Source of the DNA: an uncultured Candidatus Saccharibacteria bacterium
Lineage (GTDB): Bacteria; Patescibacteriota; Saccharimonadia; CAILAD01; JADZBC01
Reading direction: 5' to 3'
Assembly: GCA_964413715.1 (NCBI GenBank)
Contig: CAYPSN010000002.1
Location: forward strand, 66,850 to 119,874
DNA length: 53,025 nucleotides
The notes below the pieces were generated by a model. It was not told the DNA's origin and did no database searches. It worked only from the letters and a program-made list of their open reading frames with translations. Numbering within the stretch: the first letter of the stretch is position 1; each line of letters begins with the position of its first letter. Positions 518 to 52,904 of this stretch are shown here, in pieces. The translations under genes and the position numbers were made by a program.

Positions 518-649
518 CGAACGCTACCCAACAGTCAGCCTCGGCTGACAGATTGGAGGCGCCTATGCGCTTTCGAGGGTTGTGCGAGTGATCGTGCAGC
601 CCTGCGGCTGGCCTGATTCGGCCAACCCACTGCCCTTTCCTTCTCAACC

Positions 650-700
650 CACGTCATCAAATGTGTATTTGATCTGAAGAGTTCAAAAGAACGAAACGTG
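650..700 (+). ncRNA. Type III hammerhead ribozyme (HH8)
   Basis: CACGU-C (cleavage predicted after C655), stem I AUCAAA-UGUGUA-UUUGAU, CUGAAGA, stem II GUUC-AAAA-GAAC, GAAA, CGUG. All invariant core positions present. Small hairpin UGGCC/GGCCA at 609-624. Confidence 0.8.
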
Positions 701-711
701 AAAAGAAGAAT

Positions 712-13436: not shown

Positions 13437-13488
13437 CCCCCGTCCGGGCATCAACGCATTACAAAAATGCGAAGAGCCCGGACGGGGG
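13437..13488 (+). terminator. Long GC hairpin terminator
   Basis: CCCCCGTCCGGGC (13437-13449) pairs with GCCCGGACGGGGG (13476-13488), inner GCATT/AATGC helix, then CTCTTCGTTT. Confidence 0.6.
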
Positions 13489-13507
13489 CTCTTCGTTTAA
13501 GTGAAGA

Positions 13508-36409: not shown

Positions 36410-36798
36410 CTTTGAATGCACATAGATACACTCAAAGACGAACACCACTCACATGCTTCACCCCACCGCAGCACTCATCTACATAAGTGCTCTGGTAGGG
36501 CCACCGAGGATTTCTCCTCGATGGTACTCACCCTCCCGCGATACCGACTAGCTTTTTTTCACTAGTCGACTTCTGTTGCCAGGCCGTCGCTACGACCCCG
36601 GAAACCCTGTTAGGGAGTCCCCACCAAGACCGGCAGATCCGGAGTGAGTCCGAAGAGGACTCGCACCTTCTCCACCGGCGGCGGGACTGGTCCGAAGACC
36701 GTTCCAATTTCCCGTGCGTCGTCACCCGCAAGAACAAGCCAGGGATAACCCCGACTCACCCTTGGGGAACGGCCGCCCGGTGTGCGGTAGCACATCAT
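36410..36798 (-). ncRNA. Structured GC-rich non-coding segment immediately 3' of ssrA (tmRNA-related fragment?)
   Basis: No credible ORF. Many helices. 15-nt exact copy (36570-36584) of a tmRNA segment (36996-37010), flanked by a compensated helix (CGAC/GTCG versus CCGC/GCGG). Confidence 0.4.
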
Positions 36799-36799
36799 C

Positions 36800-37163
36800 G
36801 TGGAGCTGGAGGGAATCGAACCCTCGTCCACCAGGTAGCAAACTTACTCGCTACGACCATTCCTGGTTTTGAACTTTGCAGCAGTTCGAGGGCCAGGTCA
36901 CTTGTACTGTGCTTGCGCGCAGCCAGCTGCCAAGTCTTTCCTTGAAGTCACTGTACTTTCACAGTGTCAGCGGTCTATCCCTGCTGTCTTCTCCGCTTCT
37001 GTTGCCAGGCTGCGGTGAATCGGCCCCGAATCTAAGCTTTTTACGGCCCTTTTCGTAACCTTCGCTATCAGGCGGCGGTTATGAGTTTGCCCTGTTTTAC
37101 GAGTCTGAGCAACTCGGGTCGCAAGTAAGCTAGCTAGTCCCGATGTCGAAACCAGTCAGCCCC
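36800..37163 (-). ncRNA. ssrA: tmRNA (SsrA)
   Basis: 5' GGGGCUGACUGGUUUCGAC, 3' GGACGAGGGUUCGAUUCCCUCCAGCUCCA. Acceptor stem has a G3-U pair. Candidate tag frame GGC AAA CUC AUA ACC GCC GCC UGA UAG. Terminal CCA not fully encoded (CGA). Confidence 0.9.
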
Positions 37164-37172
37164 TAGGGCGCG

Positions 37173-37406
37173 TTACAGATAGCCAGCCAAGGTACGCGCA
37201 TCCTCGGCATCGTGGTGGTCCGACTGAGCGGCGGCACAGGCGTGCCCGGTCTCATGCCCGATGTCGAAACCAGCCTCGAAGATGAGGTACATCGTTTCCA
37301 TCAGCGACAGTCCCTGAGCTCGGGCTTCGACCAACAAGGCCTGAACCGTGAGCTCTACCGCTTCCTCGAAAACTTCTTCCGACATTTCCTCGGGGGTGAT
37401 GGACAT
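37173..37406 (-). CDS. Small acidic hypothetical protein (77 aa)
   Basis: ATG 37406 preceded by GGGAGGAAGG. Stop lies 9 nt before the tmRNA 5' end. Confidence 0.5.
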   Translation of the reverse strand: MSITPEEMSEEVFEEAVELTVQALLVEARAQGLSLMETMYLIFEAGFDIGHETGHACAAAQSDHHDAEDARTLAGYL

Positions 37407-37515
37407 AAGCCTTCCTCCCACGCTATGGAGTTGCGATTCAACTCCCCGGCGGGAGGCATCCGCCTCTTACCTCCGGCTGAGGAGTTGAATGGTGTGCGGC
37501 TTGTAAAAGTGCTCT

Positions 37516-37569
37516 GATAGTTTCGTCGTTTCCGACTCATCAGCCCGGACATACATCCGAGGACTATCC
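37516..37569 (-). ncRNA. Type III hammerhead ribozyme (HH6)
   Basis: Minus strand: GGAUAGU-C, stem I CUCGGA-UGUAUG-UCCGGG, CUGAUGA, stem II GUCG-GAAA-CGAC, GAAA, CUAUC. Cleavage predicted after C at 37562. Confidence 0.8.
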
Positions 37570-38733
37570 ACTCACGAACTCACAATGGAGCTCGCGAGCG
37601 ACCCTGGGGAGCCTCTGCAGGTTTTTTAAACCGTGCAAAGTCTACAACCCAGGGAAGGATTGTCCGGCTTTCACTCGATGGAGTGACCCGGAGCGGCTTA
37701 CCTTCGGCCGCGGCGTGATTGCGTTCGCTTCGGAGGGCACATTGGTTTTCAGGCCGCTGTGTCCGGGGTGACGAAACGCACTTTCAGCTAGTGAAGTTAA
37801 CCCCAGATCATTTGTTGATTTCCTACCGCTCTCGCGGTCGCGCGCCCATGTTGGGCCCAACACGTCGAGGTTTATACTCCTCGCAGGCTGATCTCTTCTC
37901 CTCTTCTGCCGTTATCCTCTTCCCGGGCTTGTTCCGGTCTACGCGGGCCTCCCCTGGGAGGCCAAAGGGCGACTTTACTAGCATCGAATCTGGGAGCTGC
38001 ACACTCGCGTGGCGCTCACCATGAGATGGGGGCTGGTAAAGCTAGGTCAGCTCTTTACCATGTCGGACTTCATACCACGCGTGCAAGCGTAGCCGACTTT
38101 GACCACAGATGCTGGTTTTACCCAGCTTAGGGGGATCCCCCCTGAGCACTCTGCAGCACCCTTATCCTCAGTCGTCTTCTTGGCATCCACCCCGGCCAGG
38201 GCTTCAACCATGCTGCGGGGCTATCCGCAGCTCCCTCTTTTCAGATTGGGCTTGCCAGGCCCAAACCTTGAGGTATGGCCCGACGGCGACTGATTTCCTG
38301 CCCTTTGCCTGAAGCACGTTTGTACGTGATCCGGACTCCCATGAATGGCGGGCAGGTGGCCTTGACTCTTAGCTTGCGGCTTCGAGCTGTACCACCATTC
38401 TTTTCCGATACACCTGCCTTGGCGGGCAGAATATACCACTAACTTCGTCAGCCCCGCCAAGGACCGCGATACTTGCTAAATGCGTTGGATCCTACCAAGA
38501 GGCACACTGTCACAAGCATGGAGATTTAAATGATGCCTATGGCATCACTCTGCAAAACACCGGGAGTAGGTGCGTTGCATATCATCCCTCGCGGGACTGT
38601 CAGGCTCTCCACAGCCAGGGTGCTGGGTGTTCTGTCTTGCTGTGATGTAAATATTTACAGAACCCAGCGCCTTGACTGTTGAGAACCTTTGACGATTATT
38701 TTGTAACGTTCTATGCAGTTGTTATCTGCACTG
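37570..38733 (-). ncRNA. Large (about 1.16 kb) GC-rich ORF-less structured RNA candidate
   Basis: Lies between promoter 38740-38768 and HH6. Only short Arg/Pro/Gly-rich ORFs. Numerous long helices, for example CCUUGGCGGG/CCCGCCAAGG (38413-38461) and CUGGGUUCUGU/ACAGAACACCCAG (38618-38663). Confidence 0.45.
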
Positions 38734-38884: not shown

Positions 38885-38913
38885 ATAACAAAAAAGACCC
38901 TTAGTCGGGTCTT
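38885..38913 (-). terminator. Intrinsic terminator (strong on the minus strand)
   Basis: AAGACCC-GACUAA-GGGUCUU followed by UUUUGUUAUAAAAAG on the minus strand. Confidence 0.7.
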
Positions 38914-39346
38914 GATTGTGATGATTGCTTTGTGGGTGGTCGGGGTGGTGCGGATCCATGCGGATCCGCACCACCCTCGACCTTATCAACGAACCCCTGC
39001 TGCTTCAACTACGCTTGGACAGCGCGCGCCTAGTTGCCTTGTGGCTTGCGGCGTTTGACAGCATGGAGAGTTGGCCCTGACTTGACCAGGGCATGGGCGA
39101 CCTTGTATTCAGTAGCCCCAACTGCGTTGGTTAACCAACGTGGAGTCGTGGCCTAGATGCCATCTCCCATGTATTTACCTCCTGGTTCGCCCTGGTAAGG
39201 GCTGGATGTGGTGCCCTTCGTTGAGTTCGGGGGAGCGAGCATTGCCCGCTCCCCCTCGCTCCAGCCGCCCCCAACAGGGGGATGTTAGAAGGATTACAGA
39301 CCCTCTCCCATGACTTCCCCCTTGGGTAGATCGGCAACGATAGGCA
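38914..39346 (-). ncRNA. About 430-nt GC-rich ORF-less transcript candidate bounded by a promoter and a terminator
   Basis: Promoter 39353-39381 and terminator 38885-38913. Contains a 14-bp perfect hairpin GGTGGTGCGGATCC/GGATCCGCACCACC (38946-38977). Only spurious-looking ORFs. Confidence 0.5.
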
Positions 39347-39393: not shown

Positions 39394-40155
39394 TTATTTT
39401 TTATCCTTAGTCCACGCTAGTTCAAATAGCTGCCTGAGAGCTCCTACGATTTCCTTACTCTCAATAACGATGCCTGCTGAAGATTTACCTTCGCTTCCAT
39501 AAGAAATCAGGAGAGCCCTGTCCTCGTACAAGTTGATGTCTGCCTGAACAGGGCTATTGAGGCGCATTGTTTCCCTCAATAAGCCTTTATCTGACGGCAC
39601 TTCATCCTTAAATGAGTATATAAGTTTACTAGATAGTCTTTTCTTTAAACGATTTTTAGGGCTAGTTTTTTCTATGTCAGGCACAAGACGAGTCACTTCA
39701 TCGTAATTGCTCATAGCGTATATCGTAGAGCCCACTCGAGCTTTTCTCCGAGTGTCCGAGGTGGTACTATTGATGCCCTCAAGGCCTTTGTAAAAACGAA
39801 CCACGGGAGCCTCTCCAGCAGAACCATGCTCCTGCTGCTTCAAACTCGGCATCAGGTTCTTCAGCTCGCTCTTCTTCGTTTCAATACTCGACTTTTGGCT
39901 GTCCAAGTAACGTTCGAGTGCCTCGGGTGGTTCGGCTACGAAAACAGTTTTTTTACCTTCTGTAGACTGGCTTACTAATCCCATTTCGGCTAGTTCATCT
40001 AGTATTACGTAAGTGGTAGCACGGTTAACCTCGGACTGCTGTGCGATCTTTTGTGCACTAGCTGAACCTAGAAAAAGCGCGGCCACGTACACACGTGCCT
40101 GCTTGTCGGCCAGGCCTACAGATTGTAATTTAGCTGCGAGTTCAATAATTTGCAT
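39394..40155 (-). CDS. TrmB-family transcriptional regulator (paralog 1)
   Basis: N-terminal wHTH LGLADKQARVYVAALFLGSASAQKIAQQSEVNRATTYVILDELAEMGLV, a coiled-coil linker and a C-terminal domain. Start moved to MQIIEL (40155). Confidence 0.8.
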   Translation of the reverse strand: MQIIELAAKLQSVGLADKQARVYVAALFLGSASAQKIAQQSEVNRATTYVILDELAEMGLVSQSTEGKKTVFVAEPPEALERYLDSQKSSIETKKSELKNLMPSLKQQEHGSAGEAPVVRFYKGLEGINSTTSDTRRKARVGSTIYAMSNYDEVTRLVPDIEKTSPKNRLKKRLSSKLIYSFKDEVPSDKGLLRETMRLNSPVQADINLYEDRALLISYGSEGKSSAGIVIESKEIVGALRQLFELAWTKDKK

Positions 40156-40162
40156 GTGTTTA

Positions 40163-40191
40163 AATATACTACATTTGTCAAAATTTGTCAA
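40163..40191 (-). promoter_or_regulatory. Promoter of TrmB paralog 1 (apparently leaderless)
   Basis: TTGACA (40191-40186), 17-nt spacer, TATATT (40168-40163), then 7 nt to ATG 40155. Second TGTCAA copy at 40176-40181. Confidence 0.55.
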
Positions 40192-40266
40192 CAATATATC
40201 AATTTAACCTGTACAAATACGTAATAATGTTGTAGAATAAGTTGTCTCTACCGAAAGGGGACTTCC

Positions 40267-42156: not shown

Positions 42157-42936
42157 TTATTTTCTAGACTTGCCGCTACCAGCGTTCGCGCTTGCAACTC
42201 CTGTTTTTACCAATGTAAAAATCTGCTTCATTGCCTCGGCTATCTGTGGGCTCTCTATAATCGTACCGATAACTTCTTCGCCGTATGAAATCAGTGCGGT
42301 TTTGTTGCCATACACATATAGGTTCACAGGCGCCGTAAAGGCTTCGCGCGGCGCCCAGGCCATGTCTCGGAGCATTGCTTTGTCATGTTCACGACCGTAG
42401 CGGATATTATCTTCTTCAGCCGGTTCTATACCGTGCGCTTTTATACCCAGTTTGGCCCGCTGCTCCATGTGCTTGTACAAATCTTTGCCCAACACGTTAA
42501 AGTCAGCATCCGAGCGGATAAAGTAAATGTCTTTACCCGTCCTACGCTGGTCTTCGTACATCTTTATAATCCCTTCTTTACCCTGGAAGAAGCGCACGCC
42601 AGGCTGATGCTGATAGGTGTAGAAGTAATTCAGTAGCTGCGGCATGCTGTCTCGCACCAGTTTTTCGGTAGCAAGAATCTCCTTACGTTTTTCTTCGATA
42701 AGTCGCTCTAAATTTGTGGGGTTGGCGGGATGATAACTCAGCTTTTTGCCAGATTCATCCTTCTCAACAAGACCTAGTGCGCACAACTTGTCGAGAATCA
42801 TATAACAATTTGTACGTGTTTCACCAATCTTTTCAGCCAACTCTGGGGGTGTTAAATCACCAAACTTTATAAGCGTAATATATGCTTTTGCCTGGCTTTT
42901 GGTTAAGCCTATTTGTTGTAAGAGTTCTGCATTCAT
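42157..42936 (-). CDS. TrmB-family transcriptional regulator (paralog 2)
   Basis: IGLTKSQAKAYITLIKFGDLTPPELAEKIGETRTNCYMILDKLCALGLV wHTH. 259 aa. Confidence 0.8.
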   Translation of the reverse strand: MNAELLQQIGLTKSQAKAYITLIKFGDLTPPELAEKIGETRTNCYMILDKLCALGLVEKDESGKKLSYHPANPTNLERLIEEKRKEILATEKLVRDSMPQLLNYFYTYQHQPGVRFFQGKEGIIKMYEDQRRTGKDIYFIRSDADFNVLGKDLYKHMEQRAKLGIKAHGIEPAEEDNIRYGREHDKAMLRDMAWAPREAFTAPVNLYVYGNKTALISYGEEVIGTIIESPQIAEAMKQIFTLVKTGVASANAGSGKSRK

Positions 42937-42942
42937 GCTTCA

Positions 42943-42984
42943 ATTCTACTCTCTATATTCATTTTTGTCAAGCGTATTTTGACA
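42943..42984 (-). promoter_or_regulatory. Promoter of TrmB paralog 2 (leaderless) within a TGTCAA-N7-TTGACA palindrome
   Basis: TTGACA (42971-42966), 17-nt spacer, TAGAAT (42948-42943), then 6 nt to ATG 42936. Palindrome spans 42966-42984. Confidence 0.6.
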
Positions 42985-43033
42985 TAAATGTGTTAATTTT
43001 CTATCTGTAAGGTAAGTATTTGTTTATTTTATA

Positions 43034-43062
43034 TTGACTATTTAATGCTTTTATTATATACT
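43034..43062 (+). promoter_or_regulatory. Strong sigma70 promoter of the hammerhead-punctuated operon
   Basis: TTGACT 43034-43039, 17-nt spacer, TATACT 43057-43062. GC content jumps immediately downstream. Confidence 0.65.
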
Positions 43063-43119
43063 TCCCCAGGCTCAAGCAACCCCGCTAGAGCCAGCACCTC
43101 GACACGCCTAGGAGGCGAC

Positions 43120-43272
43120 ATGCACGACGATCAAGAGTGGTTCGACAACCGGGACCTCCTCCCCCGCGGAATCATCCTCGGAGTGAGGCCGAAGCCCACG
43201 AACACGCAAAGCAACACGCTGAGCGACGCACTCGAAGACCTGCTGGAGCGGCGCTTCCTGCGCCGACTCTGA
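43120..43272 (+). CDS. Small hypothetical protein (50 aa), first ORF of the operon
   Basis: ATG 43120 follows GGAGG by 5 nt. Sequence MHDDQEWFDNRDLLPRG... Confidence 0.45.
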   Translation: MHDDQEWFDNRDLLPRGIILGVRPKPTNTQSNTLSDALEDLLERRFLRRL

Positions 43273-43316
43273 CGAGGCAACAAGGTAAACGGGGCGGTAC
43301 CTACAAACCCGCCCCC

Positions 43317-43373
43317 CTGACTCGGAGAGTAACGCGCTCTCCCTGACGATGACCGCGCACGGTCGAAAGTCAG
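43317..43373 (+). ncRNA. Type III hammerhead ribozyme (HH1) preceded by a hairpin
   Basis: CUGACU-C (cleavage after 43323), stem I GGAGAG-UAACGCG-CUCUCC, CUGACGA, one extra U, stem II GACCG-CGCA-CGGUC, GAAA, GUCAG. Hairpin GGGGCGG/CCGCCCC at 43291-43315. Confidence 0.8.
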
Positions 43374-43397
43374 CCGCACCTTGAACCAAGGAGAACA

Positions 43398-44003
43398 ATG
43401 AGCACCCCAGCCCTACTGAAAGTCGTCCTGACGGGCGGTCCCTGCGCCGGAAAGACCACGGTCTTCCGCCGCATCGAGCAAGAGTACGGACACCTGGTAA
43501 CGCTGGTGCCCGAAGTAGCCACCATGCTGCTCTCGAGCGGCTACCCCATGCCCGGACGCGACCTCGACTGGTCGCCCGGCTGGCGAGACAGCTTCCAGCG
43601 AGCCATCGCCACGGTCCAGGAAGAGGTAGAGGCGGCCTACGAAATGCGAGCTAAGGAGCGAGGTCACCGCCTCCTCCTGACCGACCGAGGCCTGATGGAC
43701 GGAGCGGCCTACTACGACAGCCGAGCTGAGTTCCTGAGCGCAACCGGAATCGACCATGGCACTGCCCTGGCTCGATACCAGGCGGTCATCCACCTCGAAT
43801 CCGTCGCCATCGCTCAGCCGGAGCTCTACTCGAAGGGCAACAACCCCTTCCGCTTCGAGACACTTGAGGAGGCCATCCCTCTCGAGGCCAAAACCCGAAG
43901 CGCTTGGGCTGGCCACCCACAGCACACCATCCTGGAGGGCGCCGACCTCGACTACAAGGTTAGCGGTACGCTCAGGGTGCTCGCGGCCTACCTGCAGGCA
44001 TGA
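43398..44003 (+). CDS. P-loop NTPase/kinase-like protein (AAA_28/NadR-kinase-like)
   Basis: Walker A GGPCAGKTT. Roughly 200-aa single-domain P-loop protein. RBS AAGGAG. Confidence 0.65.
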   Translation: MSTPALLKVVLTGGPCAGKTTVFRRIEQEYGHLVTLVPEVATMLLSSGYPMPGRDLDWSPGWRDSFQRAIATVQEEVEAAYEMRAKERGHRLLLTDRGLMDGAAYYDSRAEFLSATGIDHGTALARYQAVIHLESVAIAQPELYSKGNNPFRFETLEEAIPLEAKTRSAWAGHPQHTILEGADLDYKVSGTLRVLAAYLQA

Positions 44004-44041
44004 GCAGTGCAAGGTTCCGGGAGGTCCTTTAAAAACCTCCC

Positions 44042-44094
44042 CTGACTCGCGGAGTGAGTGCTCCGCCTGACGAGCCGGAAACGGCGAAAGTCAG
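44042..44094 (+). ncRNA. Type III hammerhead ribozyme (HH2) preceded by a hairpin
   Basis: CUGACU-C (cleavage after 44048), stem I GCGGAG-UGAGUG-CUCCGC, CUGACGA, stem II GCCG-GAAA-CGGC, GAAA, GUCAG. Hairpin GGGAGGU/ACCUCCC at 44019-44041. Confidence 0.85.
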
Positions 44095-44117
44095 TCCGCA
44101 CCTTGAAGGAGGCTTAC

Positions 44118-44696
44118 ATGCCCACTGAACCGAACAACCCTATCGACGAGATCTTCATCTCGGTCGATATCGAGTGCGACGGGGACATCCCCGGCGACTA
44201 CTCGATGCTCAGCATCGGGGCCACTACCCTCGGCAACAGGTACGATCGCGACTTCTACGTCGAACTCCGGCCCATGACCGAACGGTACAACCCCGACAGC
44301 CTGGCAGTAGCCAGCCTGGACCGCACTCGTCTGCTCCGCGAGGGAGTGCCAGCTCAGGTAGCGATGGCTCGGTTTGCAGCCTGGATCGAGGAAGTCCGCG
44401 GACTCCATGGAGACGCCAAAGCGGTGTGTGTCACTCTCAGCGAGTGGGATAACGGCTGGCTCTACTGGTACTTCGTCCACTTCCTGGGCCAAAAGCCCCT
44501 CGGCTTCACCGGCATCGACATCAAGAGCTACTTCATGGGCAAGCATGACCTGAAGGAGTTCGCGGGCACACCCCGAACCGAGATGCTGAAGCACTACCCG
44601 AGTGAGATCGAGCACACGCACAACGCGCTCGACGACGCCCGGGAGCAAGCCGAGATCTTCTGGGCAATGTACCGAGCCCAGCCTCCACAGGCCTAA
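44118..44696 (+). CDS. DEDDh 3'-5' exonuclease (DnaQ-like fold)
   Basis: ExoI SVDIECDG, ExoIII HNALDDAREQA. ATG 44118 after GAAGGAGG. Confidence 0.75.
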   Translation: MPTEPNNPIDEIFISVDIECDGDIPGDYSMLSIGATTLGNRYDRDFYVELRPMTERYNPDSLAVASLDRTRLLREGVPAQVAMARFAAWIEEVRGLHGDAKAVCVTLSEWDNGWLYWYFVHFLGQKPLGFTGIDIKSYFMGKHDLKEFAGTPRTEMLKHYPSEIEHTHNALDDAREQAEIFWAMYRAQPPQA

Positions 44697-44738
44697 GAGA
44701 CACAGAGGTAACCGGGGTGGTACCTACAAACCCGCCCC

Positions 44739-44791
44739 CTGACTCGCGGAGTGAGTGCTCCGCCTGACGAGCCGGAAACGGCGAAAGTCAG
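44739..44791 (+). ncRNA. Type III hammerhead ribozyme (HH3) preceded by a hairpin
   Basis: Ribozyme sequence identical to HH2 (cleavage after 44745). Hairpin GGGGUGG/CCGCCCC at 44714-44738. Confidence 0.85.
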
Positions 44792-44816
44792 TCCGCACCT
44801 TGAACTAAGGAGACCG

Positions 44817-45119
44817 ATGAGAATCGTTCGTCAAGGATCTATCCCGCCCGACCGCAACATCCAGCGAGGAACTTGCAGGCACTGCGGCACAGTGGTGGAA
44901 GCCAACATAACCACTGAGTGCAACCGGCGTACAACGACCAGGGACATTTACACTGATTATGACCCGGATGGACGACCGCCCTACTACTACAGCAAGACTG
45001 TCACGACCGAATACTTTGAGACGGGTTGTCCAGTCTGCTCAAGGCCAATCTGTGTATCCTCGAGGGAAATCTCGAGTACCCATCGGCCGGATGCACCAAA
45101 AGAAAAGTGGAGCATGTAG
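44817..45119 (+). CDS. Small zinc-ribbon-like protein (100 aa)
   Basis: CRHC...CPVC cysteine pairs. ATG 44817 after AAGGAG. Confidence 0.5.
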   Translation: MRIVRQGSIPPDRNIQRGTCRHCGTVVEANITTECNRRTTTRDIYTDYDPDGRPPYYYSKTVTTEYFETGCPVCSRPICVSSREISSTHRPDAPKEKWSM

Positions 45120-45161
45120 GTAGGCGCACAAGGTTCCGGGAGGTCCTTTCAAAACCTCCCC

Positions 45162-45216
45162 CGACTCGGAGAGTAATGCGCTCTCCCTGACGATGACCGC
45201 GCACGGTCGAAAGTCG
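45162..45216 (+). ncRNA. Type III hammerhead ribozyme (HH4) preceded by a hairpin
   Basis: CGACU-C (cleavage after 45167), stem I GGAGAG-UAAUGCG-CUCUCC, CUGACGA, extra U, stem II GACCG-CGCA-CGGUC, GAAA, GUCG. Hairpin GGGAGGU/ACCUCCC at 45138-45160. Confidence 0.8.
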
Positions 45217-45247
45217 GTATACTGTATAATCTACGAAAAGGAGTTGC

Positions 45248-45883
45248 ATGACCGCACAAGTTATTACCATCGATGGAGGCGCTGGCGTAGGTGGCAGCAC
45301 CACGGCCGAAGCACTAAGTAAGGCACTCGGCTGCGAACACCTCAACGTCGGTGAAATCTACCGCGCCCTCACCTTCGAACTGGTTAGCCTCGGCTGGACG
45401 AAGAAGCAGATTATGAGCTCACCCATGCTGGCGGCCGAGCTGGCGGCCGGATTCAAGCTACAGATTGCTAACGGCAGCGTGGCTAGCGTGAATGGTCAAG
45501 ATTGCCAAGGCAAGCTACACGCAGCAGAAATCAGCAAGCTGGTTCCGACTGTTGCGGCCATTCCCGAGATGCGAGCTACCGCCAAGAAGGTAGAGAAGAA
45601 CTTCATTGCAACTCGGCCACTCAGCATCATCGAGGGTCGAGCGGGCGCCTGGAGTATCCCGCAAGCAGTGCTAAAAATCTGGCTGCATTGCGATCCAGAA
45701 ATCGCCGCCAAGCGGCGCGGCTGCACCGTAGCAGAGATCCTGGAGCGCAACCTAGCGGATGCTACACGCGAGCACTCGCCTATGATCAAGCACCCAGATG
45801 CAGTCGCCATCGACACGGGCAAGCTACTCCCGGCCGAGATTGTGCAGCGCATCACGCAGCTCTACCGCGAACTGGCAGAATGA
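45248..45883 (+). CDS. Cytidylate kinase-like P-loop kinase
   Basis: ITIDGGAGVGGST...LNVGEIYRAL resembles the Cmk N-terminus (IDGPxxxGKST...DTGxxYRA). P-loop Lys replaced (GVGGST). TATAAT at 45225-45230 upstream. Confidence 0.6.
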   Translation: MTAQVITIDGGAGVGGSTTAEALSKALGCEHLNVGEIYRALTFELVSLGWTKKQIMSSPMLAAELAAGFKLQIANGSVASVNGQDCQGKLHAAEISKLVPTVAAIPEMRATAKKVEKNFIATRPLSIIEGRAGAWSIPQAVLKIWLHCDPEIAAKRRGCTVAEILERNLADATREHSPMIKHPDAVAIDTGKLLPAEIVQRITQLYRELAE

Positions 45884-45927
45884 CGCGGACAGCTAGGTTC
45901 CTGGGGAGTCCTACCAAAACTCTCCCC

Positions 45928-45977
45928 CGATTCAGCAGATTATGTCTGCTCTGATGAGCCAAGCATGGCGAAAATCG
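45928..45977 (+). ncRNA. Type III hammerhead ribozyme (HH5) preceded by a hairpin
   Basis: CGAUU-C (cleavage after 45933), stem I AGCAGA-UUAUG-UCUGCU, CUGAUGA, stem II GCCA-AGCA-UGGC, GAAA, AUCG. Hairpin GGGGAGU/ACUCUCC at 45903-45925. Confidence 0.85.
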
Positions 45978-45995
45978 GTTATAGTTAGGAGAATA

Positions 45996-46520
45996 ATGAA
46001 CGAAGTTATCGAAATTGAACGCAAGTGGGTCCTCGATGGGCTACCTGAGGGGATCGTTCCGATAAAAAGCCATGAAATCGAACAGGCATACCTAGATGTT
46101 CGTGGTCTACGTTTGCGTAAAAAAGATGAGGGATACTTAATAACCTACAAGAGCAAGGGCGACTTAGCCCGCAGTGAGTGGGAGCAAGAGATTCCCGCTT
46201 GGACTTATGATGGGCTCAAAGCAGAAGCACGTGCGGTACTTCATAAAACTCGTCACGTCTACAATGGCGGCGAGGTGGCCCTAGAGCTCGATGAATACCA
46301 TGGCGAACTCGAAGGACTCTACACAATCGAAGCCGAATGGGCACTGGAAATCCCTAGCACACTCACCCTGAAAGCAAGACAAGAGCTGATTCAAGATGCC
46401 GAGAAGGCTGCCAAAAGCTACATTCTGCCCTATCAGTTCTCTAACGCTCACGAGGTCACAGGCCTTAAAGCTTATAGCAACCGCTCATTGGCAGTTCACG
46501 GCCTACCGAAGCCTAACTAA
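45996..46520 (+). CDS. CYTH-domain (triphosphate tunnel metalloenzyme) protein
   Basis: N-terminal EIERKW signature. ATG 45996 after AGGAGA. Backbone-like GC. Confidence 0.75.
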   Translation: MNEVIEIERKWVLDGLPEGIVPIKSHEIEQAYLDVRGLRLRKKDEGYLITYKSKGDLARSEWEQEIPAWTYDGLKAEARAVLHKTRHVYNGGEVALELDEYHGELEGLYTIEAEWALEIPSTLTLKARQELIQDAEKAAKSYILPYQFSNAHEVTGLKAYSNRSLAVHGLPKPN

Positions 46521-47569
46521 CCAAGTTCCTTCTTGAACTTCTCGACTAGTTCAACTGGAGCAGGGTCGATCTCGTTTAAAATGCCCATATATGCCGAAAC
46601 GTAGTCACCGAGCATAATTGTGCTAAGTAGCTGCTGAATGTGTGTGTTTCCTACTACTTCTACTTCGACAGGCTCGTAGCCGTGCTTAGCCAGCACTTGG
46701 CGCGTCACAACAAATCGTTTTTTTATACGTTCGCCATCGAGACTAGAATGAAGTTCCACCACCTGAGCATGCTTGTTTTCAGGAAACAGCCAACCTTGCA
46801 TTTCGTTATGATTCAGCTCAGGAAATACATTAGCGCTCGCCATTTGCTTGGCGTTTTCGTTAATATCAATCTTCCATTTATACGCCGCCGATGCCAACGT
46901 GGGGCCAGCATATATAATAGCGCCTTTGCCATGCAGTTGCTTAGCAATCTTTCGCGCCACAGAATCATCTGGTGCATCTAGATTCCACTGGGCCTTTTGT
47001 GTATCCAAATAGTCTGCTACATTTTGCAGCTCACGGCGCATGTCAACTTTGGAAGTTAAGCCAAGGTTTTCTAAAATGCATATTAACGCCTTAATGTCGG
47101 CGAAGACTCCTAGTCGAGGCTGAGAATAATGCTCGAGTTCAATATCTAAAAGCACTCTGTTTTTGGCCGACTTTTCGAGCAAGCCTCCACTCGACATAGT
47201 AATCACTTGTGAGTTATTGCGCTGTGCATCCTTTAGGCAACTTAGCGCCTCTTCTGTGTTACCTGAAGCGCTCGAAACTATTACAAGAGTTCGGTCATTC
47301 ACATAACCTGGCAAGCTATAGCCACGCACGACTTCAAGAGGAACAAGTAACTGCTCATTCAGCCAATTCTTCACAATCATGCCAGCCAAAGCTGAGCCGC
47401 CCATACCGGCAAAAATTATGTTGTGCACGCCTAATCCAAGCTCGGTACTGAGTTTGCCTCGCATGCTGTCAGCAAAGTTCAGTCGTAACTGTGCCGGTTG
47501 TGCGTCAATCGCATCGAAGATGTGGTGTTTGTCATATTTAGCTCGTTCGTCAGCCTTTACCATAACCAT
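46517..47569 (-). CDS. Bifunctional phosphoglucose/phosphomannose isomerase family (SIS domain)
   Basis: FAGMGGSALAG, VIVSSASGNTEE SIS motifs. Start moved to MVMVKADE (47569). Confidence 0.75.
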   Translation of the reverse strand: MVMVKADERAKYDKHHIFDAIDAQPAQLRLNFADSMRGKLSTELGLGVHNIIFAGMGGSALAGMIVKNWLNEQLLVPLEVVRGYSLPGYVNDRTLVIVSSASGNTEEALSCLKDAQRNNSQVITMSSGGLLEKSAKNRVLLDIELEHYSQPRLGVFADIKALICILENLGLTSKVDMRRELQNVADYLDTQKAQWNLDAPDDSVARKIAKQLHGKGAIIYAGPTLASAAYKWKIDINENAKQMASANVFPELNHNEMQGWLFPENKHAQVVELHSSLDGERIKKRFVVTRQVLAKHGYEPVEVEVVGNTHIQQLLSTIMLGDYVSAYMGILNEIDPAPVELVEKFKKELG

Positions 47570-50854: not shown

Positions 50855-50894
50855 TGTAATGAAAAGCCCGTCCCTAGATGTTAGGGACGGGCTT
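50855..50894 (-). terminator. Intrinsic terminator overlapping the stop of the SLOG-like gene
   Basis: AAGCCCGTCCCT-N7-AGGGACGGGCTT (50864-50894), followed on the minus strand by UUUUCAUUAC. Confidence 0.7.
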
Positions 50895-51356
50895 GTTGAG
50901 TACCGCCAACCAGTTGATGAGGATCTGCGACAGACGGCGCTCGGCCACTTTGCCAATGCCCGGGCTGCTGCTTTCACGACTACCTGCCACATTGAGTGTT
51001 AGGATGTCGTTCTCCACCAGCCAGCCTACCACCTCAACCGGGTCGCACTTGTGGAGCAGGTTCACTACGAGACACGGCTTGCCCTGTTCGTTGGCCACGT
51101 TACGAGTCAGCTTTGAGCCACCGCGCAGCGAACCACGAACAAGGATCAGCGTACCGTCGGACTCACACACATTCCTGCGTGTGCGCTGCCGGTAGCCCGA
51201 ACTCGGAGTCTCTTTGACAGAGTATTTGTCCGAAATCTGACCACGCTCGTTGTAGCGTCCCTTCGGCACCCAGCCGCCCGTTGGTATGCCCAGCTTGATG
51301 GCTGCATCCAGAGCCGCTTTGTCTACGCCGGTTTGAGCACCGCTAACGATCTTCAC
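50874..51356 (-). CDS. YpsA/'MoCo-carrier'-type SLOG-family protein
   Basis: IVSGAQTGVDKAALDAAIKLGIPTGGWVPKGR signature. GTG 51356 after AAGGGAGG. Overlaps the upstream ORF end by 14 nt. Confidence 0.65.
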   Translation of the reverse strand: MKIVSGAQTGVDKAALDAAIKLGIPTGGWVPKGRYNERGQISDKYSVKETPSSGYRQRTRRNVCESDGTLILVRGSLRGGSKLTRNVANEQGKPCLVVNLLHKCDPVEVVGWLVENDILTLNVAGSRESSSPGIGKVAERRLSQILINWLAVLNKPVPNI

Positions 51357-51939
51357 GGCGCCTCCCTTTGTAGAGCTGCATGTCGCCATCCTGGCCCAGC
51401 ACGTAGACTGGCAGCCCATCGTAGAACAACGAGGCCTTGGCCAACCCGACAATTACGTCGGGGTCGGGGTAGATTCTCGACCACCGAGTCGCCCTATTCT
51501 CAAGGACGAGTGGCCAGAACTCTCCCCAGTAGGCTTCCCCCTGATCCTCTTCCGCCAGCTCTTCCTCGAGCGGGTCTACGGACATGTCGTCCAAGCCTGA
51601 AAGTGCTTCGACATCGCAGTCGAACCCGGTGACACCACCTTCTTCGGCAATTCGCATCCTCAGATCGAAGAGCTCCGGGTCGTCGCCAACTACGACGGCG
51701 TAGACACGGCCTGCACCGCTCTGGATTCGTGAATCCAGGCGGCCGAACCACACACCGAACATGTCGAGCCACGACATGACACAGGCCTCGTGCGGCGCCA
51801 CCAGCTCGATGCCCTCCCCGCCGTGATCGACCGCGGGCAGAGTGACGACGGTTGGGCGCCGTTCCCGCAACTTCGCGCACAGAAACGCGAACTTCTTGAC
51901 TGGTACGTTGCCAATGACGACGATGATGTCGCGCATCAT
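51343..51939 (-). CDS. GC-rich hypothetical protein (about 198 aa)
   Basis: Start at tandem ATG ATG (51939 or 51936) after AAAGGAGGA. No motif recognised. Confidence 0.5.
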   Translation of the reverse strand: MMRDIIVVIGNVPVKKFAFLCAKLRERRPTVVTLPAVDHGGEGIELVAPHEACVMSWLDMFGVWFGRLDSRIQSGAGRVYAVVVGDDPELFDLRMRIAEEGGVTGFDCDVEALSGLDDMSVDPLEEELAEEDQGEAYWGEFWPLVLENRATRWSRIYPDPDVIVGLAKASLFYDGLPVYVLGQDGDMQLYKGRRREDR

Positions 51940-51987
51940 TCCTCCTTTGTAAAGAGCGTGAATTGGGCCTTCCAACTCAACGTGCAG

Positions 51988-52016
51988 ATTATACAAACTT
52001 TATGTATTTTTGTCAA
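51988..52016 (-). promoter_or_regulatory. Perfect-consensus sigma70 promoter for the GC-rich two-gene operon
   Basis: TTGACA (52016-52011), 17-nt spacer, TATAAT (51993-51988). Confidence 0.65.
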
Positions 52017-52052
52017 TAATATTTGTATAATTTGAAGATTTATGCTTTATTT

Positions 52053-52093
52053 TGTCAATATCTATTTTGACAAACGCTGGAATGTGCTACAAT
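52053..52093 (+). promoter_or_regulatory. Promoter of TrmB paralog 3 within a TGTCAA-N8-TTGACA palindrome
   Basis: Palindrome 52053-52072. TTGACA 52067-52072, extended -10 TGcTACAAT 52085-52093, then 6 nt to ATG 52100 (leaderless). Confidence 0.55.
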
Positions 52094-52099
52094 ATGGAT

Positions 52100-52837
52100 A
52101 TGGAAAATACCCTACACGAACTCGGCCTGTCAAAATCTCAGGCTCGCGCCTATATGATACTTATTGATAACGGAAGACTCGACCCTCTTTCGTTGGCCAA
52201 AAAAACTGGCGAGGCTAGAACGAACGCTTATATGATTATGGAGCGGCTAGCGGACTTGGGGCTTGCTGTGCGCGACGAAGTGAAGAAGAAGCGAATCTAT
52301 CGCCCATCAAGCCCGTTGGGACTCCAAAGATTGGCTGAAAGACAGAGAGCGAAAGCGCATGAGCAAGAAAGAAAAATTAAGCAAGCCATGCCAGATCTTC
52401 TCCGCTATTTTCATGAAAAGTACAGCCAACCTAGTGTTAGGTTTTTACAGGGCCATGATGGAATCAACCAAATTTACAAGGATCATTTGGCGCAAGATGG
52501 AGATATTTATGTATTTCGCACCCAAGAAGATTACAAGTACTACGGTGATGACCTAAATAGCTATTTGGAAGATAAGGCAAGAAAAGGAATAAAAACCGAA
52601 ATTATATCACCTCAATCCAAAATTGCGCTGCAAAACTTTAAAAACAACCCACTTGGACGAGAATTCACATGGGTACCAGAAGAAAGCTATACGGCTCCTG
52701 TCGAGATATCTATATATGGTAATAAAGCAGCCTTCACGTCATTTGGCGAGGAAGCAGTCGCTCTAATAGTGGAAAGTCCCCAAATCGCAAAAGCATTACG
52801 CGAGATTTTTCTTCTGGTTAAAACAAGGGGTATATAG
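52100..52837 (+). CDS. TrmB-family transcriptional regulator (paralog 3)
   Basis: LGLSKSQARAYMILIDNGRLDPLSLAKKTGEARTNAYMIMERLADLGLA wHTH. Start moved to MENTLHEL (52100). Confidence 0.8.
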   Translation: MENTLHELGLSKSQARAYMILIDNGRLDPLSLAKKTGEARTNAYMIMERLADLGLAVRDEVKKKRIYRPSSPLGLQRLAERQRAKAHEQERKIKQAMPDLLRYFHEKYSQPSVRFLQGHDGINQIYKDHLAQDGDIYVFRTQEDYKYYGDDLNSYLEDKARKGIKTEIISPQSKIALQNFKNNPLGREFTWVPEESYTAPVEISIYGNKAAFTSFGEEAVALIVESPQIAKALREIFLLVKTRGI

Positions 52838-52851
52838 CTAAATAGTGTGAT

Positions 52852-52904
52852 GCAACTTTCGTCCTTTTGGACTCATCAGAATAACCCGACAGTTATTGAG
52901 TTGC
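52852..52904 (-). ncRNA. Type III hammerhead ribozyme (HH7) preceded by a UUCG-capped hairpin
   Basis: Minus strand: GCAACU-C (C at 52898), stem I AAUAAC-UGUCGG-GUUAUU, CUGAUGA, stem II GUCC-AAAA-GGAC, GAAA, GUUGC. A 10-bp hairpin CACCCCGGGC-UUCG-GCCUGGGGUG at 52905-52928 lies immediately 5' on that strand. Confidence 0.8.

What the first reader, a model, noticed from the sequence alone, without database searches (positions are those of the whole stretch)
43034..46520. Operon in which every intergenic gap carries a hairpin plus a type III hammerhead ribozyme (five ribozymes in 2.7 kb)
One strong promoter (TTGACT-N17-TATACT) drives six co-directional ORFs. I saw no intrinsic terminator between them. 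Every one of the five gaps contains a 7-bp hairpin immediately followed by a complete hammerhead. The layout is: stem III 5' strand ending in U, cleavage-site C, stem I hairpin, CUGANGA, stem II hairpin with a G-C closing pair, GAAA, stem III 3' strand. An SD sequence and start codon follow 15-30 nt later. This means the polycistron should cut itself into monocistronic pieces. Each upstream piece would end in a hairpin plus a 2',3'-cyclic phosphate. Each downstream piece would begin with a 5'-OH and the folded ribozyme body directly ahead of its RBS. Bacterial hammerheads are known, mostly in prophage-like contexts. I am not aware of a described bacterial operon in which a hairpin-ribozyme module separates every cistron.
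Basis: partly seen in the sequence, partly recalled or inferred. Interest (0 to 1): 0.95.

Follow-up and report, generated by a model that had tools for sequence, protein, structure and literature searches.

The report
Hammerhead ribozymes punctuating a Saccharibacteria operon
A six-gene operon of an uncultured Saccharibacteria-like bacterium carries a complete self-cutting hammerhead RNA, each preceded by a small pseudoknot, in every gap between genes; this is a clean, conserved, non-phage example of a known but poorly understood arrangement.

Summary
Five type III hammerheads lie at the stated coordinates, with cleavage sites after C43323, C44048, C44745, C45167 and C45933. The whole window holds eight; shuffles give 0.01. 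A covariance model built only from relatives recovers exactly these eight (E 4e-19 to 2e-9). Across 51 distinct relatives, 14 of 16 stem pairs show compensatory changes. One promoter-like site precedes the six ORFs and no terminator-like site lies between them.

Two corrections. First, the "7-bp hairpin" is stem 2 of an H-type pseudoknot with an A-rich loop, and it covaries. Second, arrays of hammerheads flanking single genes were described in 2011 (PMC3088659), there in prophages, so the novelty is overstated.

What appears new:
- The host is a Saccharibacteria/Patescibacteria lineage.
- The locus is a conserved chromosomal site with no phage signal.
- The same gene set (Zn-ribbon, DEDD exonuclease, AAA_28, CMP kinase, CYTH) is punctuated in several candidate-phyla lineages.
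- Gene order is permuted and the modules are mosaic.
- The pseudoknot-hammerhead composite itself.

Most likely function: protein-independent cutting of the polycistron into monocistronic mRNAs. Each would have a pseudoknot-capped 3' end and a ribozyme-capped 5' end. Cleavage itself is inferred, not shown.

The parts
43034..43062 (+). Promoter-like site TTGACT-N17-TATACT of the operon; the divergent TrmB promoter-like site is at 42971-42943 on the - strand
   Evidence: 10 of 12 matches (+) and 11 of 12 (-). The same layout occurs in L003, L006 and L100.
43069..43115 (+). Primary 5' UTR: 5' hairpin GGCUC..GAGCC (43069-43092), GCACCUC box (43094-43100), SD UAGGAGG (43109-43115)
   Evidence: Equivalent hairpin, box and SD in L006, L003 and L100.
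43120..43272 (+). g1, 50-aa ORF with no family match
   Evidence: C-terminal similarity to the first ORF of L006.
43283..43315 (+). Pseudoknot 1 (type A): S1 AGGUA 43283-43287 with UACCU 43298-43302; S2 GGGGCGG 43291-43297 with CCGCCCC 43309-43315; A-rich loop ACAAAC
43317..43373 (+). Hammerhead 1 (body type X, extra U after A9); cleavage after C43323
   Evidence: (39.8 bits, E 2e-9)
43376..43382 (+). GCACCUU box in the 5' UTR of g2; partner unknown
43398..44003 (+). g2, AAA_28 P-loop NTPase/kinase-like protein
   Evidence: PF13521, E 5.6e-21
44011..44041 (+). Pseudoknot 2 (type B): S1 AAGG 44011-44014 with CCUU 44026-44029; S2 GGGAGGU 44019-44025 with ACCUCCC 44035-44041; loop UAAAA
44042..44094 (+). 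Hammerhead 2 (body type Y); cleavage after C44048
   Evidence: RF00008, 39.6 bits; (71.9 bits, E 4e-19)
44098..44104 (+). GCACCUU box in the 5' UTR of g3
44118..44696 (+). g3, DEDD 3'-5' exonuclease
   Evidence: PADLOC PDLC00753, E 1.9e-46; PDB 7t2s, E 1.6e-24
44706..44738 (+). Pseudoknot 3 (type A)
   Evidence: (D4)
44739..44791 (+). Hammerhead 3 (body type Y, identical to hammerhead 2); cleavage after C44745
   Evidence: D1
44795..44801 (+). GCACCUU box in the 5' UTR of g4
44817..45119 (+). g4, 100-aa Cys-rich (zinc-ribbon-like) protein
   Evidence: homologues after hammerheads in L006, L087, L091 and L098
45130..45160 (+). Pseudoknot 4 (type B)
   Evidence: (D3)
45161..45217 (+). Hammerhead 4 (body type X; stem III CCGAC/GUCGG compensated within the module); cleavage after C45167
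   Evidence: 40.7 bits, E 1e-9; D2
45248..45883 (+). g5, cytidylate-kinase family protein
   Evidence: PF02224, E 1e-30
45894..45925 (+). Pseudoknot 5 (type B'): S1 UAGG with CCUA, a compensated variant
45927..45978 (+). Hammerhead 5 (body type Z; stem III CCGAU/AUCGG); cleavage after C45933
   Evidence: (60.5 bits, E 1.2e-15)
45996..46520 (+). g6, CYTH (triphosphate tunnel metalloenzyme) protein; always the last gene of such arrays; its end overlaps the end of the convergent PGI gene
   Evidence: PF01928; PDB 2fbl, 3typ

Best explanation
The operon is transcribed from one promoter as a single RNA (inferred). In each gap a cis-acting type III hammerhead folds and cleaves 3' of C17 (inferred from an intact catalytic core and covarying stems).

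This converts the polycistron into monocistronic mRNAs with built-in end structures. Each upstream piece ends in an H-type pseudoknot with an A-rich third loop, followed by a 7-8 nt tail carrying a 2',3'-cyclic phosphate. The pseudoknot starts 7-11 nt after the stop codon, which I estimate to be about at the edge of the terminating ribosome's footprint. I propose it acts as a 3' stabiliser against 3'-5' exonucleases. Each downstream piece starts with a 5'-OH and the compact stem I/stem II ribozyme body, then a conserved GCACCU(U/C) box, the SD and the start codon.

The first cistron has the same plan, with an ordinary 5' hairpin in place of the ribozyme body. Each cistron therefore gets its own decay rate and an insulated translation start from one promoter, without a protein endonuclease.

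The repeated, mosaic modules also look like substrates for recombination. That would explain the permuted gene order and the gain or loss of genes among relatives.
For: Intact ribozymes.
- All consensus core positions are present and 8 motifs occur against 0.01 expected.
- R1, built from other loci, finds exactly these.
- Pair counts: 98.8% paired with 14 of 16 pairs changed on both sides in 10 sequences. In 51 distinct sequences, 95.7% paired and covariation score 0.75 against 0.20 shuffled and at most 0.14 slid.

One transcription unit.
- One promoter-like site and no terminator-like site.
- All ribozymes are in the sense orientation.

Conservation of position.
- Syntenic loci reached through AAA_28 or GroEL homology (L003, L005, L006, L100) have a hammerhead in every gap.
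- More distant candidate-phyla loci (L007, L008, L010, L012) have hammerheads with unrelated stem sequences next to the same genes.

Cis action.
- Stem III changes are compensated within a module: CCGAC/GUCGG in W4 and CCGAU/AUCGG in W5.

Pseudoknot.
- S1 of at least 4 bp at loop-1 lengths of 1-6 nt in 32 of 43 modules, against 3-7 of 43 when the 5' strand window is slid upstream.
- S1 classes include AAGG/CCUU, AGGG/CCCU, UAGG/CCUA, AGGUA/UACCU, GAGGC/GCCUC, UUGAC/GUCAA and AAGUC/GACUU.
- Official count on a gapless subset: one S1 pair is AU in 6 and GC in 6 sequences; 93% of cells are paired against 42-64% when slid.
- A stand-alone pseudoknot follows the last gene of L100. This fits a role at 3' ends.

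Precedent.
- Clustered bacterial hammerheads cleave in vitro and were proposed to process polycistrons (PMC3088659; review PMC6765202).
Against: - There is no cleavage assay and no RNA-end mapping.
- Rfam's gathering score is not reached (39.6-43.9 against 48.5), and HH1, HH4 and HH5 are not reported by Rfam at all.
- HH1 and HH4 have an extra U after A9 whose effect on rate is untested here.
- RNAfold's minimum-energy fold pairs the stem III 3' strand with the CUGAC of the core rather than with the true 5' strand. An inactive alternative fold may therefore compete.
- The stabiliser role of the pseudoknot and of the ribozyme body is inference. In Bacillus the 5'-OH product of glmS cleavage is a substrate of RNase J1 (my recollection of the literature), so cleavage could destabilise rather than stabilise.
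- AAA_28-CYTH pairs exist without any hammerhead in 7 other candidate-phyla loci. The ribozymes are therefore dispensable for the gene pair.
Confidence: 0.7

Rival explanations
1. Cleavage mainly lowers expression. Each hammerhead exposes a 5'-OH end that a 5'-3' exonuclease of the RNase J type degrades. The array would then set a decreasing expression gradient along the operon, or act as a brake, rather than produce stable monocistronic mRNAs.
For: The chemistry is the same as in the best explanation. The glmS precedent is mentioned in the review. Three other hammerheads in the window sit after genes, two of them at convergent junctions, where cutting off read-through RNA would be useful.
Against: The conserved 5' UTR plan (ribozyme body, box, SD) mirrors the primary 5' UTR (hairpin, box, SD). 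That suggests the downstream pieces are meant to be translated. A conserved pseudoknot at the new 3' end argues for stabilisation of at least the upstream piece.
Confidence: 0.15
2. The pseudoknot-hammerhead modules are selfish or neutral repeats that spread into the gaps of this operon and drive rearrangements, with no selected role in expression.
For: The modules are mosaic repeats: PK-A or PK-B combined with HH-X or HH-Y. Gene order is permuted and genes are gained or lost between close relatives: window, L003, L006 and L100. The AAA_28-CYTH pair exists without hammerheads elsewhere. Two Saccharibacteria genomes lack hammerheads around groEL.
Against: The modules are always in the sense strand and always between stop codon and SD. 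Spacing from the stop codon is fixed at 7-11 nt. All catalytic nucleotides are kept and stems are compensated over divergence down to about 50% protein identity. The type B pseudoknot occurs nowhere else in the 53-kb window.
Confidence: 0.08
3. Pairs of hammerheads excise each gene as an RNA with 5'-OH and 2',3'-cyclic phosphate ends. This RNA is then circularised or re-joined, as in retrozymes or viroid-like RNAs.
For: Type III hammerheads flank each gene in tandem. The stem III sequence CUGAC/GUCAG is shared by modules 1-3.
Against: Stem III variants are compensated within a module, not between the modules that would meet in a circle: W4 CCGAC/GUCGG and W5 CCGAU/AUCGG. No ligase or reverse transcriptase lies in the locus. 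Perreault et al. looked for spliced or circular products in their arrays and found none.
Confidence: 0.03
4. The pseudoknot is a ligand-binding aptamer that stacks on stem III and makes the hammerhead allosteric, giving metabolite-controlled processing of a nucleotide-metabolism operon.
For: It has the H-type pseudoknot topology with an A-rich loop, as in small pseudoknot riboswitch aptamers. It abuts stem III with 0-2 nt between them. The genes are nucleotide-related.
Against: Loop 1 is not conserved between pseudoknot classes: UUCC, AAAC or CU. No Rfam family matches even at E 10 on a single module. A pseudoknot also stands alone without a ribozyme in L100.
Confidence: 0.04

Closest known systems
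Clustered hammerheads flanking single genes in bacterial prophage regions (Perreault et al. 2011, PMC3088659: Clostridium scindens, Azorhizobium caulinodans, Agrobacterium tumefaciens)
   Same: Several cis-acting hammerheads in one orientation separate individual genes of a polycistron. They were proposed to process long transcripts into single-gene mRNAs, and three arrays were shown to cleave in vitro.
   Different: - Here there is no phage context: 0 operon-type matches in IMG/VR, no blastn match to phage genomes and only weak PHROG hits.
- The site is conserved between trmB and pgi in Saccharibacteria-like genomes.
- All five gaps are occupied.
- Each ribozyme is fused to an upstream pseudoknot.
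- The same gene set recurs in several candidate-phyla lineages.
Rfam RF00008 Hammerhead_3 (type III hammerhead of viroids, satellites and others)
   Same: Same core, same three-helix junction open at stem III, same cleavage site.
   Different: Scores are 39.6-43.9 bits, below the gathering score of 48.5. Stem II is short with a tetraloop. Two copies carry an extra U after A9. Three of the five are not reported by Rfam.
Protein-dependent processing of bacterial operon mRNAs with 3' hairpin stabilisers (RNase E, III or Y sites; established knowledge, not tested here)
   Same: The outcome is the same: segments of one transcript acquire different ends and stabilities.
   Different: The catalyst is the RNA itself. 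The ends are 5'-OH and 2',3'-cyclic phosphate rather than 5'-phosphate and 3'-OH.
Synthetic ribozyme insulators and ribozyme-processed synthetic operons (RiboJ-type parts; my own knowledge)
   Same: A hammerhead placed upstream of an RBS removes upstream context and leaves a defined 5' UTR.
   Different: This is a natural, conserved system and has an added element at the 3' end of the upstream piece.
H-type pseudoknots with an A-rich third loop (for example small riboswitch aptamers and viral frameshift pseudoknots; my own knowledge)
   Same: Topology S1-L1-S2-S1'-L3(A-rich)-S2' with no spacer between S2 and S1'.
   Different: No Rfam family matches. Loop 1 is not conserved between classes. 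The position is in a 3' UTR directly fused to a ribozyme.

Membership tests
Hammerhead ribozyme, type III | Conserved core C3 U4 G5 A6 N7 G8 A9 ... G12 A13 A14 | tested here: met
   All five operon copies and the three others have CUGANGA and GAAA in place. HH1 and HH4 have one inserted U between A9 and G10.1.
Hammerhead ribozyme, type III | A15.1-U16.1 pair and a cleavage-site nucleotide H17 that is not G | tested here: met
   U-A in 48 of 48 distinct bodies. H17 is C in 47 and A in 1. The scan itself required a paired 15.1-16.1 position and excluded G at position 17, so only the uniform U-A and C identities are informative.
Hammerhead ribozyme, type III | G10.1-C11.1 pair closing stem II | tested here: met
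   G-C in 48 of 48 and in 49 of 50 cells in A5.
Hammerhead ribozyme, type III | Three helices around the core, supported by covariation | tested here: met
   14 of 16 pairs change on both sides; 95.7-98.8% of cells are paired against 24-43% when partners are slid. Caveat: A5 is fitted to the model. A4 is a gapless MAFFT alignment.
Hammerhead ribozyme, type III | Open end at stem III; stems I and II closed by loops | tested here: met
Hammerhead ribozyme, type III | Score at or above the Rfam RF00008 gathering threshold | tested here: not met
   39.6 bits for HH2 and HH3, and 43.9 bits for the copy at 37515-37569, against 48.5. HH1, HH4 and HH5 are not reported. E-values of 1e-6 to 1e-8 are still significant.
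Hammerhead ribozyme, type III | Mg2+-dependent site-specific self-cleavage giving 2',3'-cyclic phosphate and 5'-OH | not testable with these tools
   Needs in vitro transcription or end-specific RNA-seq.
Hammerhead ribozyme, type III | Loop I-loop II tertiary contact for activity at physiological Mg2+ | not tested
   Loops are present (5-7 nt and 4 nt), but no contact could be inferred from sequence.
Prophage-associated hammerhead gene clusters (Perreault 2011) | Several hammerheads flanking single genes in one orientation | tested here: met
Prophage-associated hammerhead gene clusters (Perreault 2011) | Prophage or integrase context | tested here: not met
   No integrase or phage structural genes among the called genes within about 10 kb on either side. 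PHROG hits are only generic. The operon-type pattern has 0 hits in IMG/VR and blastn to phage genomes finds nothing. The locus is syntenic in four relatives.
Retrozyme / viroid-like circular RNA with hammerheads | Hammerhead halves that pair across the circle junction; circular RNA product | tested here: not met
   Stem III compensation is within modules, not across adjacent modules. Circular RNA itself is not testable here.
Known pseudoknot riboswitch aptamers (Rfam) | Match to a curated covariance model | tested here: not met
   No match up to E 10 on a 131-nt stretch.

The most novel reading that the evidence does not exclude
The unit [ribozyme body - 5' UTR box - ORF - pseudoknot - stem III 5' strand] is an exchangeable gene cassette whose borders are the RNA cleavage sites. 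The trmB-pgi locus of these Saccharibacteria would then be a cassette array, integron-like in behaviour. Genes would be shuffled, gained and lost at hammerhead junctions, either by recombination at the conserved CCCC-CUGACUC junction or through an RNA intermediate. A related possibility is that the pseudoknot-hammerhead pair is a general, protein-free system that replaces terminators and processing nucleases for defining mRNA ends in reduced genomes. Three further hammerheads in the window sit after genes or upstream of the tmRNA gene.
Probability: 0.1. Interest if true: 0.85.

Novelty: new variant of a known kind. Interest (0 to 1): 0.6.

Why it matters
The biological role of bacterial hammerheads is still described as largely elusive (PMC6765202). 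Most known clusters sit in poorly conserved prophage regions, where function is hard to infer.

Here the ribozymes occupy every gap of a recognisable operon at a conserved chromosomal site. The relatives form a natural comparison series: the same genes with ribozymes in permuted order, a reduced array, and the same gene pair with no ribozymes. That makes it directly testable what cleavage does to mRNA stability and translation.

The fused pseudoknot suggests that both new RNA ends are designed, an idea not raised in the papers I could read. I found no paper linking hammerheads with Saccharibacteria or the candidate phyla radiation. These organisms have small genomes.

Tried and rejected
1. Outer helix P0 between the AAGGU upstream of the hairpin and the ACCUU box downstream of the ribozyme. 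RNAfold predicts it for module 1. It is rejected as a general feature. In the L087 family S1 changed AAGG to AGGG with loop CCUU to CCCU, but the box is ACCUC. Lineages with GAC-type pseudoknots keep an AACCUUA box with no upstream partner. The box also occurs in the primary 5' UTR of g1, which has no ribozyme before it.

2. The box as an anti-SD that sequesters the RBS. The longest pairing is 3.63 against 3.11 for shuffled boxes, which is no support.

3. Circular or spliced RNA. Rejected on the pattern of stem III compensation.

4. Pseudoknot as a known aptamer. No Rfam match and loop 1 is not conserved.

5. Prophage or plasmid origin. No phage match. The plasmid collection was not searched.

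6. A functional link between the encoded enzymes and ribozyme-made RNA ends. This is weakened because the AAA_28-CYTH pair is adjacent without hammerheads in 7 other loci.

7. MAFFT alignments A2, A3 and A6 were out of register in the pseudoknot or stem III. They were not used for counts. The gapless subsets A4 and A7 and the model-based A5 were used instead.

8. Swapping pseudoknot partners between modules gave a weak control (mean 2.95 against 3.72). Most S1 classes share an AGG/CCU core. The slid-window control is more informative.

9. Exact recombination breakpoints between the window and L003 could not be placed, because all modules resemble each other.

Full report
**Observation**

I read 42800-46800 and scanned the window with a type III hammerhead descriptor. 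The descriptor asks for a stem III 5' strand, U16.1, H17, a stem I hairpin, CUGANGA, a stem II hairpin, GAAA and a stem III 3' strand.

It finds five motifs on the + strand: 43317-43373, 44042-44094, 44739-44791, 45161-45217 and 45927-45978. It also finds three more elsewhere: 650-700 (+), 37516-37568 (-) and 52852-52904 (-). Two hundred dinucleotide-preserving shuffles give a mean of 0.01 motifs and a maximum of 1.

Rfam at gathering thresholds reports only a tmRNA and a tRNA. In E-value mode RF00008 hits HH2 and HH3 at 39.6 bits (E 2.7e-6) and the copy at 37515-37569 at 43.9 bits. All are below the 48.5-bit gathering score.

I built covariance model R1 from ten hammerheads of other loci (A4). 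With filters off it finds exactly the eight window copies, at E 4e-19 to 2e-9. The next match is at E 0.46.

The promoter-like site TTGACT-N17-TATACT is at 43034-43062. There is no terminator-like site in 42900-46750, where shuffles give 3.6.

**Genes and organism**

| Gene | Coordinates | Assignment |
|---|---|---|
| g1 | 43120-43272 | 50 aa, no family |
| g2 | 43398-44003 | AAA_28 P-loop protein |
| g3 | 44118-44696 | DEDD 3'-5' exonuclease (PADLOC PDLC00753 1.9e-46; PDB 7t2s 1.6e-24) |
| g4 | 44817-45119 | Cys-rich small protein |
| g5 | 45248-45883 | cytidylate kinase family |
| g6 | 45996-46520 | CYTH, related to 2fbl and 3typ |

- The operon has 0.55-0.65 G+C in flanks of 0.40-0.48.
- It lies between a divergent trmB-like regulator and a convergent pgi, next to tRNA-Ser.
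- GroEL of the window is 75-79% identical to proteins named Candidatus Saccharibacteria, and 76% to one named Patescibacteria group.
- The best AAA_28 relatives in species-representative genomes are candidate-phyla bacteria at no more than 50% identity.
- There is no phage signal. Only generic PHROG hits appear. The operon-type hammerhead pattern has 0 matches in IMG/VR. blastn against phage genomes finds nothing.

**Relatives**

Contigs carrying AAA_28 homologues of 79%, 60% and 53% identity (L003, L005, L006) are syntenic, with trmB, the operon and pgi. They were reached through the protein, not the ribozyme. Every gap in their operons still holds a hammerhead.

Gene order differs:
- Window: g1, AAA_28, exonuclease, Zn, CMK, CYTH.
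- L003: lipoprotein, exonuclease, AAA_28, CMK, CYTH.
- L006: g1-like, AAA_28, Zn, CYTH.
- L100 (reached through GroEL, 85% identity): reduced to lipoprotein, hammerhead and an 80-aa protein.

More distant loci also have type III hammerheads next to AAA_28 and CYTH, with unrelated stem sequences. These are L007 (a Parcubacteria group MAG), L008 (Buchananbacteria), L010 and L012. L010 has five in 2.6 kb.

An exact-pattern scan of metagenomes gave 13 further loci with arrays of three or four hammerheads around the same gene families.

Over 1.0 Mb in 97 sources, R1 finds 57 hammerheads. All are in these lineages. None is in the roughly 70 other AAA_28 loci. Seven of those loci have AAA_28 and CYTH adjacent, 0-60 nt apart, with no ribozyme. 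Two Saccharibacteria genomes with 79% GroEL identity have no hammerhead within 10 kb of groEL.

**Covariation in the hammerhead stems**

| Alignment | Cells paired | Pairs changed on both sides | Covariation score |
|---|---|---|---|
| A4 (gapless, 10 sequences) | 98.8% (24-41% when partners slid) | 14 of 16 | 1.03 (0.30 shuffled) |
| A5 (model-fitted, 51 distinct sequences) | 95.7% | 14 of 16 | 0.75 (0.20 shuffled; at most 0.14 slid) |

The invariant pairs are A15.1-U16.1 and G10.1-C11.1, as expected for the family. Two caveats apply. The descriptor and the model select for pairing, and A5 is fitted to the model. The diversity of pair types, and the loci found through proteins, are the independent part of the evidence.

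**The "hairpin" is a pseudoknot**

In each module the 7-bp hairpin is preceded, 2-6 nt upstream, by 4-6 nt that pair with the first nucleotides of its loop. The rest of the loop is A-rich. The order is S1 5' strand, L1, S2 5' strand, S1 3' strand, L3 (nCAAAA), S2 3' strand. Stem III follows after 0-2 nt.

- S1 comes in compensated classes: AAGG/CCUU, AGGG/CCCU, UAGG/CCUA, AGGUA/UACCU, GAGGC/GCCUC, CGAC/GUCG, UUGAC/GUCAA and AAGUC/GACUU.
- S1 of at least 4 bp occurs in 32 of 43 distinct modules at L1 of 1-6 nt. It occurs in only 3-7 of 43 when the upstream window is slid by 6-36 nt.
- On a gapless subset (A7) one S1 pair is A-U in six and G-C in six sequences. 93% of cells are paired, against 42-64% when slid.
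- Rfam has no match for this element.
- In the window the pseudoknots start 7-11 nt after the stop codons.
- In L100 a type B pseudoknot follows the last gene with no ribozyme after it.
- Among 73 distinct type III hammerheads from phage contigs, 41 have a hairpin abutting stem III but only 5 look pseudoknotted. I ran no control for the chance rate of such abutting hairpins. A structured element in front of stem III may therefore be common, with the pseudoknot form specific to this group.

**Other module features**

The modules are mosaics. The HH-Y body is identical in modules 2 and 3. HH-X is shared by modules 1 and 4, PK-A by 1 and 3, and PK-B by 2 and 4.

A GCACCU(U/C) box (AACCUUA in distant lineages) follows stem III by 3-8 nt in 30 of 40 distinct 5' UTRs. 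It is also present in the primary 5' UTR of g1, at 43094-43100, behind an ordinary 5' hairpin. I could not find its partner. Pairing with the upstream AAGGU does not covary, and pairing with the SD is not above shuffles.

Stem III variants are compensated within a module: CCGAC/GUCGG and CCGAU/AUCGG. This argues for linear cis cleavage rather than circles.

**Mechanism**

- *Shown:* intact, covarying, sense-oriented hammerheads in every gap; a covarying pseudoknot in front of each; one promoter-like site and no terminator-like site.
- *Inferred from established hammerhead chemistry:* cleavage 3' of C17, giving 2',3'-cyclic phosphate and 5'-OH ends.
- *Inferred:* the polycistron is cut into monocistronic mRNAs. 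Each has a pseudoknot-capped 3' end and a ribozyme-capped 5' end. This gives every cistron its own stability and an insulated translation start. The repeated modules also promote recombination that permutes and deletes genes.

The rivals are a destabilising role, selfish repeats, circular RNA and an allosteric aptamer. They are listed with their evidence in the rival explanations.

**Comparison with what is known**

Perreault et al. 2011 (PMC3088659) described multiple hammerheads flanking single genes or short gene blocks in prophages. They showed cleavage of three polycistronic arrays in vitro and proposed processing into single-gene mRNAs. A 2019 review (PMC6765202) still calls the roles of bacterial self-cleaving ribozymes largely elusive.

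The kind is therefore known. The variant is new as far as I could search. Full-text searches linking hammerhead or ribozyme with candidate phyla radiation, Patescibacteria or Saccharibacteria found nothing relevant, and a search for hammerhead with CYTH found nothing either.

The new elements are the host lineage, the conserved non-phage locus and gene set, full occupancy of the gaps, the fused pseudoknot, and the comparison series with and without ribozymes.

**Verdict**

The feature is real. It is a new variant of a known kind and of moderate to high interest.

Noticed in passing
window 37516-37568 (-), with 37173-37421 (-) and tmRNA 36798-37163 (-): A sixth hammerhead (Rfam 43.9 bits, R1 60.3 bits) lies upstream of a small acidic ORF and the tmRNA gene on the same strand. 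In relative L100 the ORF is absent and the hammerhead (17540-17592) ends about 80 nt before the tmRNA. The ribozyme may therefore cut the tmRNA precursor away from upstream RNA.
   Followed up: partly
window 37580-38720 (-) and 38900-39330 (-): These are two G+C-rich stretches of about 1.15 kb and 0.43 kb with no ORF above 80 aa on either strand. Each lies behind its own promoter-like site. The shorter one ends in a hairpin plus T-run. No Rfam match was found even in E-value mode. Parts are conserved in L100 (38976-38607 at 80% identity; 37912-37438 at 86%), but the middle is not. They are candidate unknown structured RNAs.
   Followed up: partly
window 52852-52904 (-); L003 9615-9666 (-); L100 9110-9161 (+): This hammerhead sits about 90 nt after the stop codon of a gene that runs off the window end (annotated Band_7 in L001). 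It is preceded by two hairpins and faces a convergent trmB paralogue. In L003 and L100 the same ribozyme lies between a 578-aa gene and groES. It looks like a 3' UTR or read-through-cutting hammerhead.
   Followed up: partly
window 649-701 (+): This hammerhead (R1 59.5 bits) follows ORF 217-591 and faces the convergent gene 712-1281 (-). It is the second case of a ribozyme at a convergent gene junction.
   Followed up: no
window 43094-43100, 43376-43382, 44098-44104, 44795-44801; many related loci: A conserved GCACCU(U/C) box (AACCUUA in Parcubacteria-like loci) lies 8-25 nt upstream of the SD in 30 of 40 distinct 5' UTRs. It also occurs in the primary 5' UTR, which has no ribozyme before it. 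It is absent before the A+T-richer last genes. No pairing partner was found.
   Followed up: yes
L100 about 13460-13492 (-): A type B pseudoknot (AAAGG-UUCCA-GGGAGGU-CCUU-AUAAA-ACCUCCC) stands alone after the last gene of a reduced operon, with no hammerhead after it. It is either a 3'-end element in its own right or the scar of a deletion at the junction.
   Followed up: partly
window 39394-40194 (-), 42157-42936 (-), 52052-52837 (+): Three TrmB-family regulator paralogues lie within 13 kb. Each sits next to a G+C-rich transcription unit in an A+T-richer genome. These units are the ORF-free RNAs, the hammerhead operon and a two-gene island at 50874-51996 (-). That island encodes a cpYpsA-like protein and has its own promoter-like site and a hairpin with a T-run that looks like a terminator.
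   Followed up: no
window 43336-43373 and the equivalent part of each module: RNAfold's minimum-energy structures pair the stem III 3' strand (GUCAG) with the CUGAC of the catalytic core (CUGACGA) instead of the true stem III 5' strand. Core and stem III 5' strand share the same pentamer, so an inactive alternative fold is possible.
   Followed up: no
window 45225-45230: A perfect TATAAT preceded by TG lies just after hammerhead 4 and 18 nt before the g5 start codon. It could be an internal promoter for g5-g6. It is not conserved in L003 and was not called by the promoter scan, which found no -35.
   Followed up: no
L103-L182 (IMG/VR contigs): A generic hammerhead pattern with stem II GNCCAARAGGNC is very common in viral contigs (at least 120 loci). 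Of 73 distinct type III copies, 41 have a hairpin of at least 5 bp ending within 3 nt of stem III. L168 carries a pseudoknot of the same GAGCA/UGCUC type as L012.
   Followed up: partly
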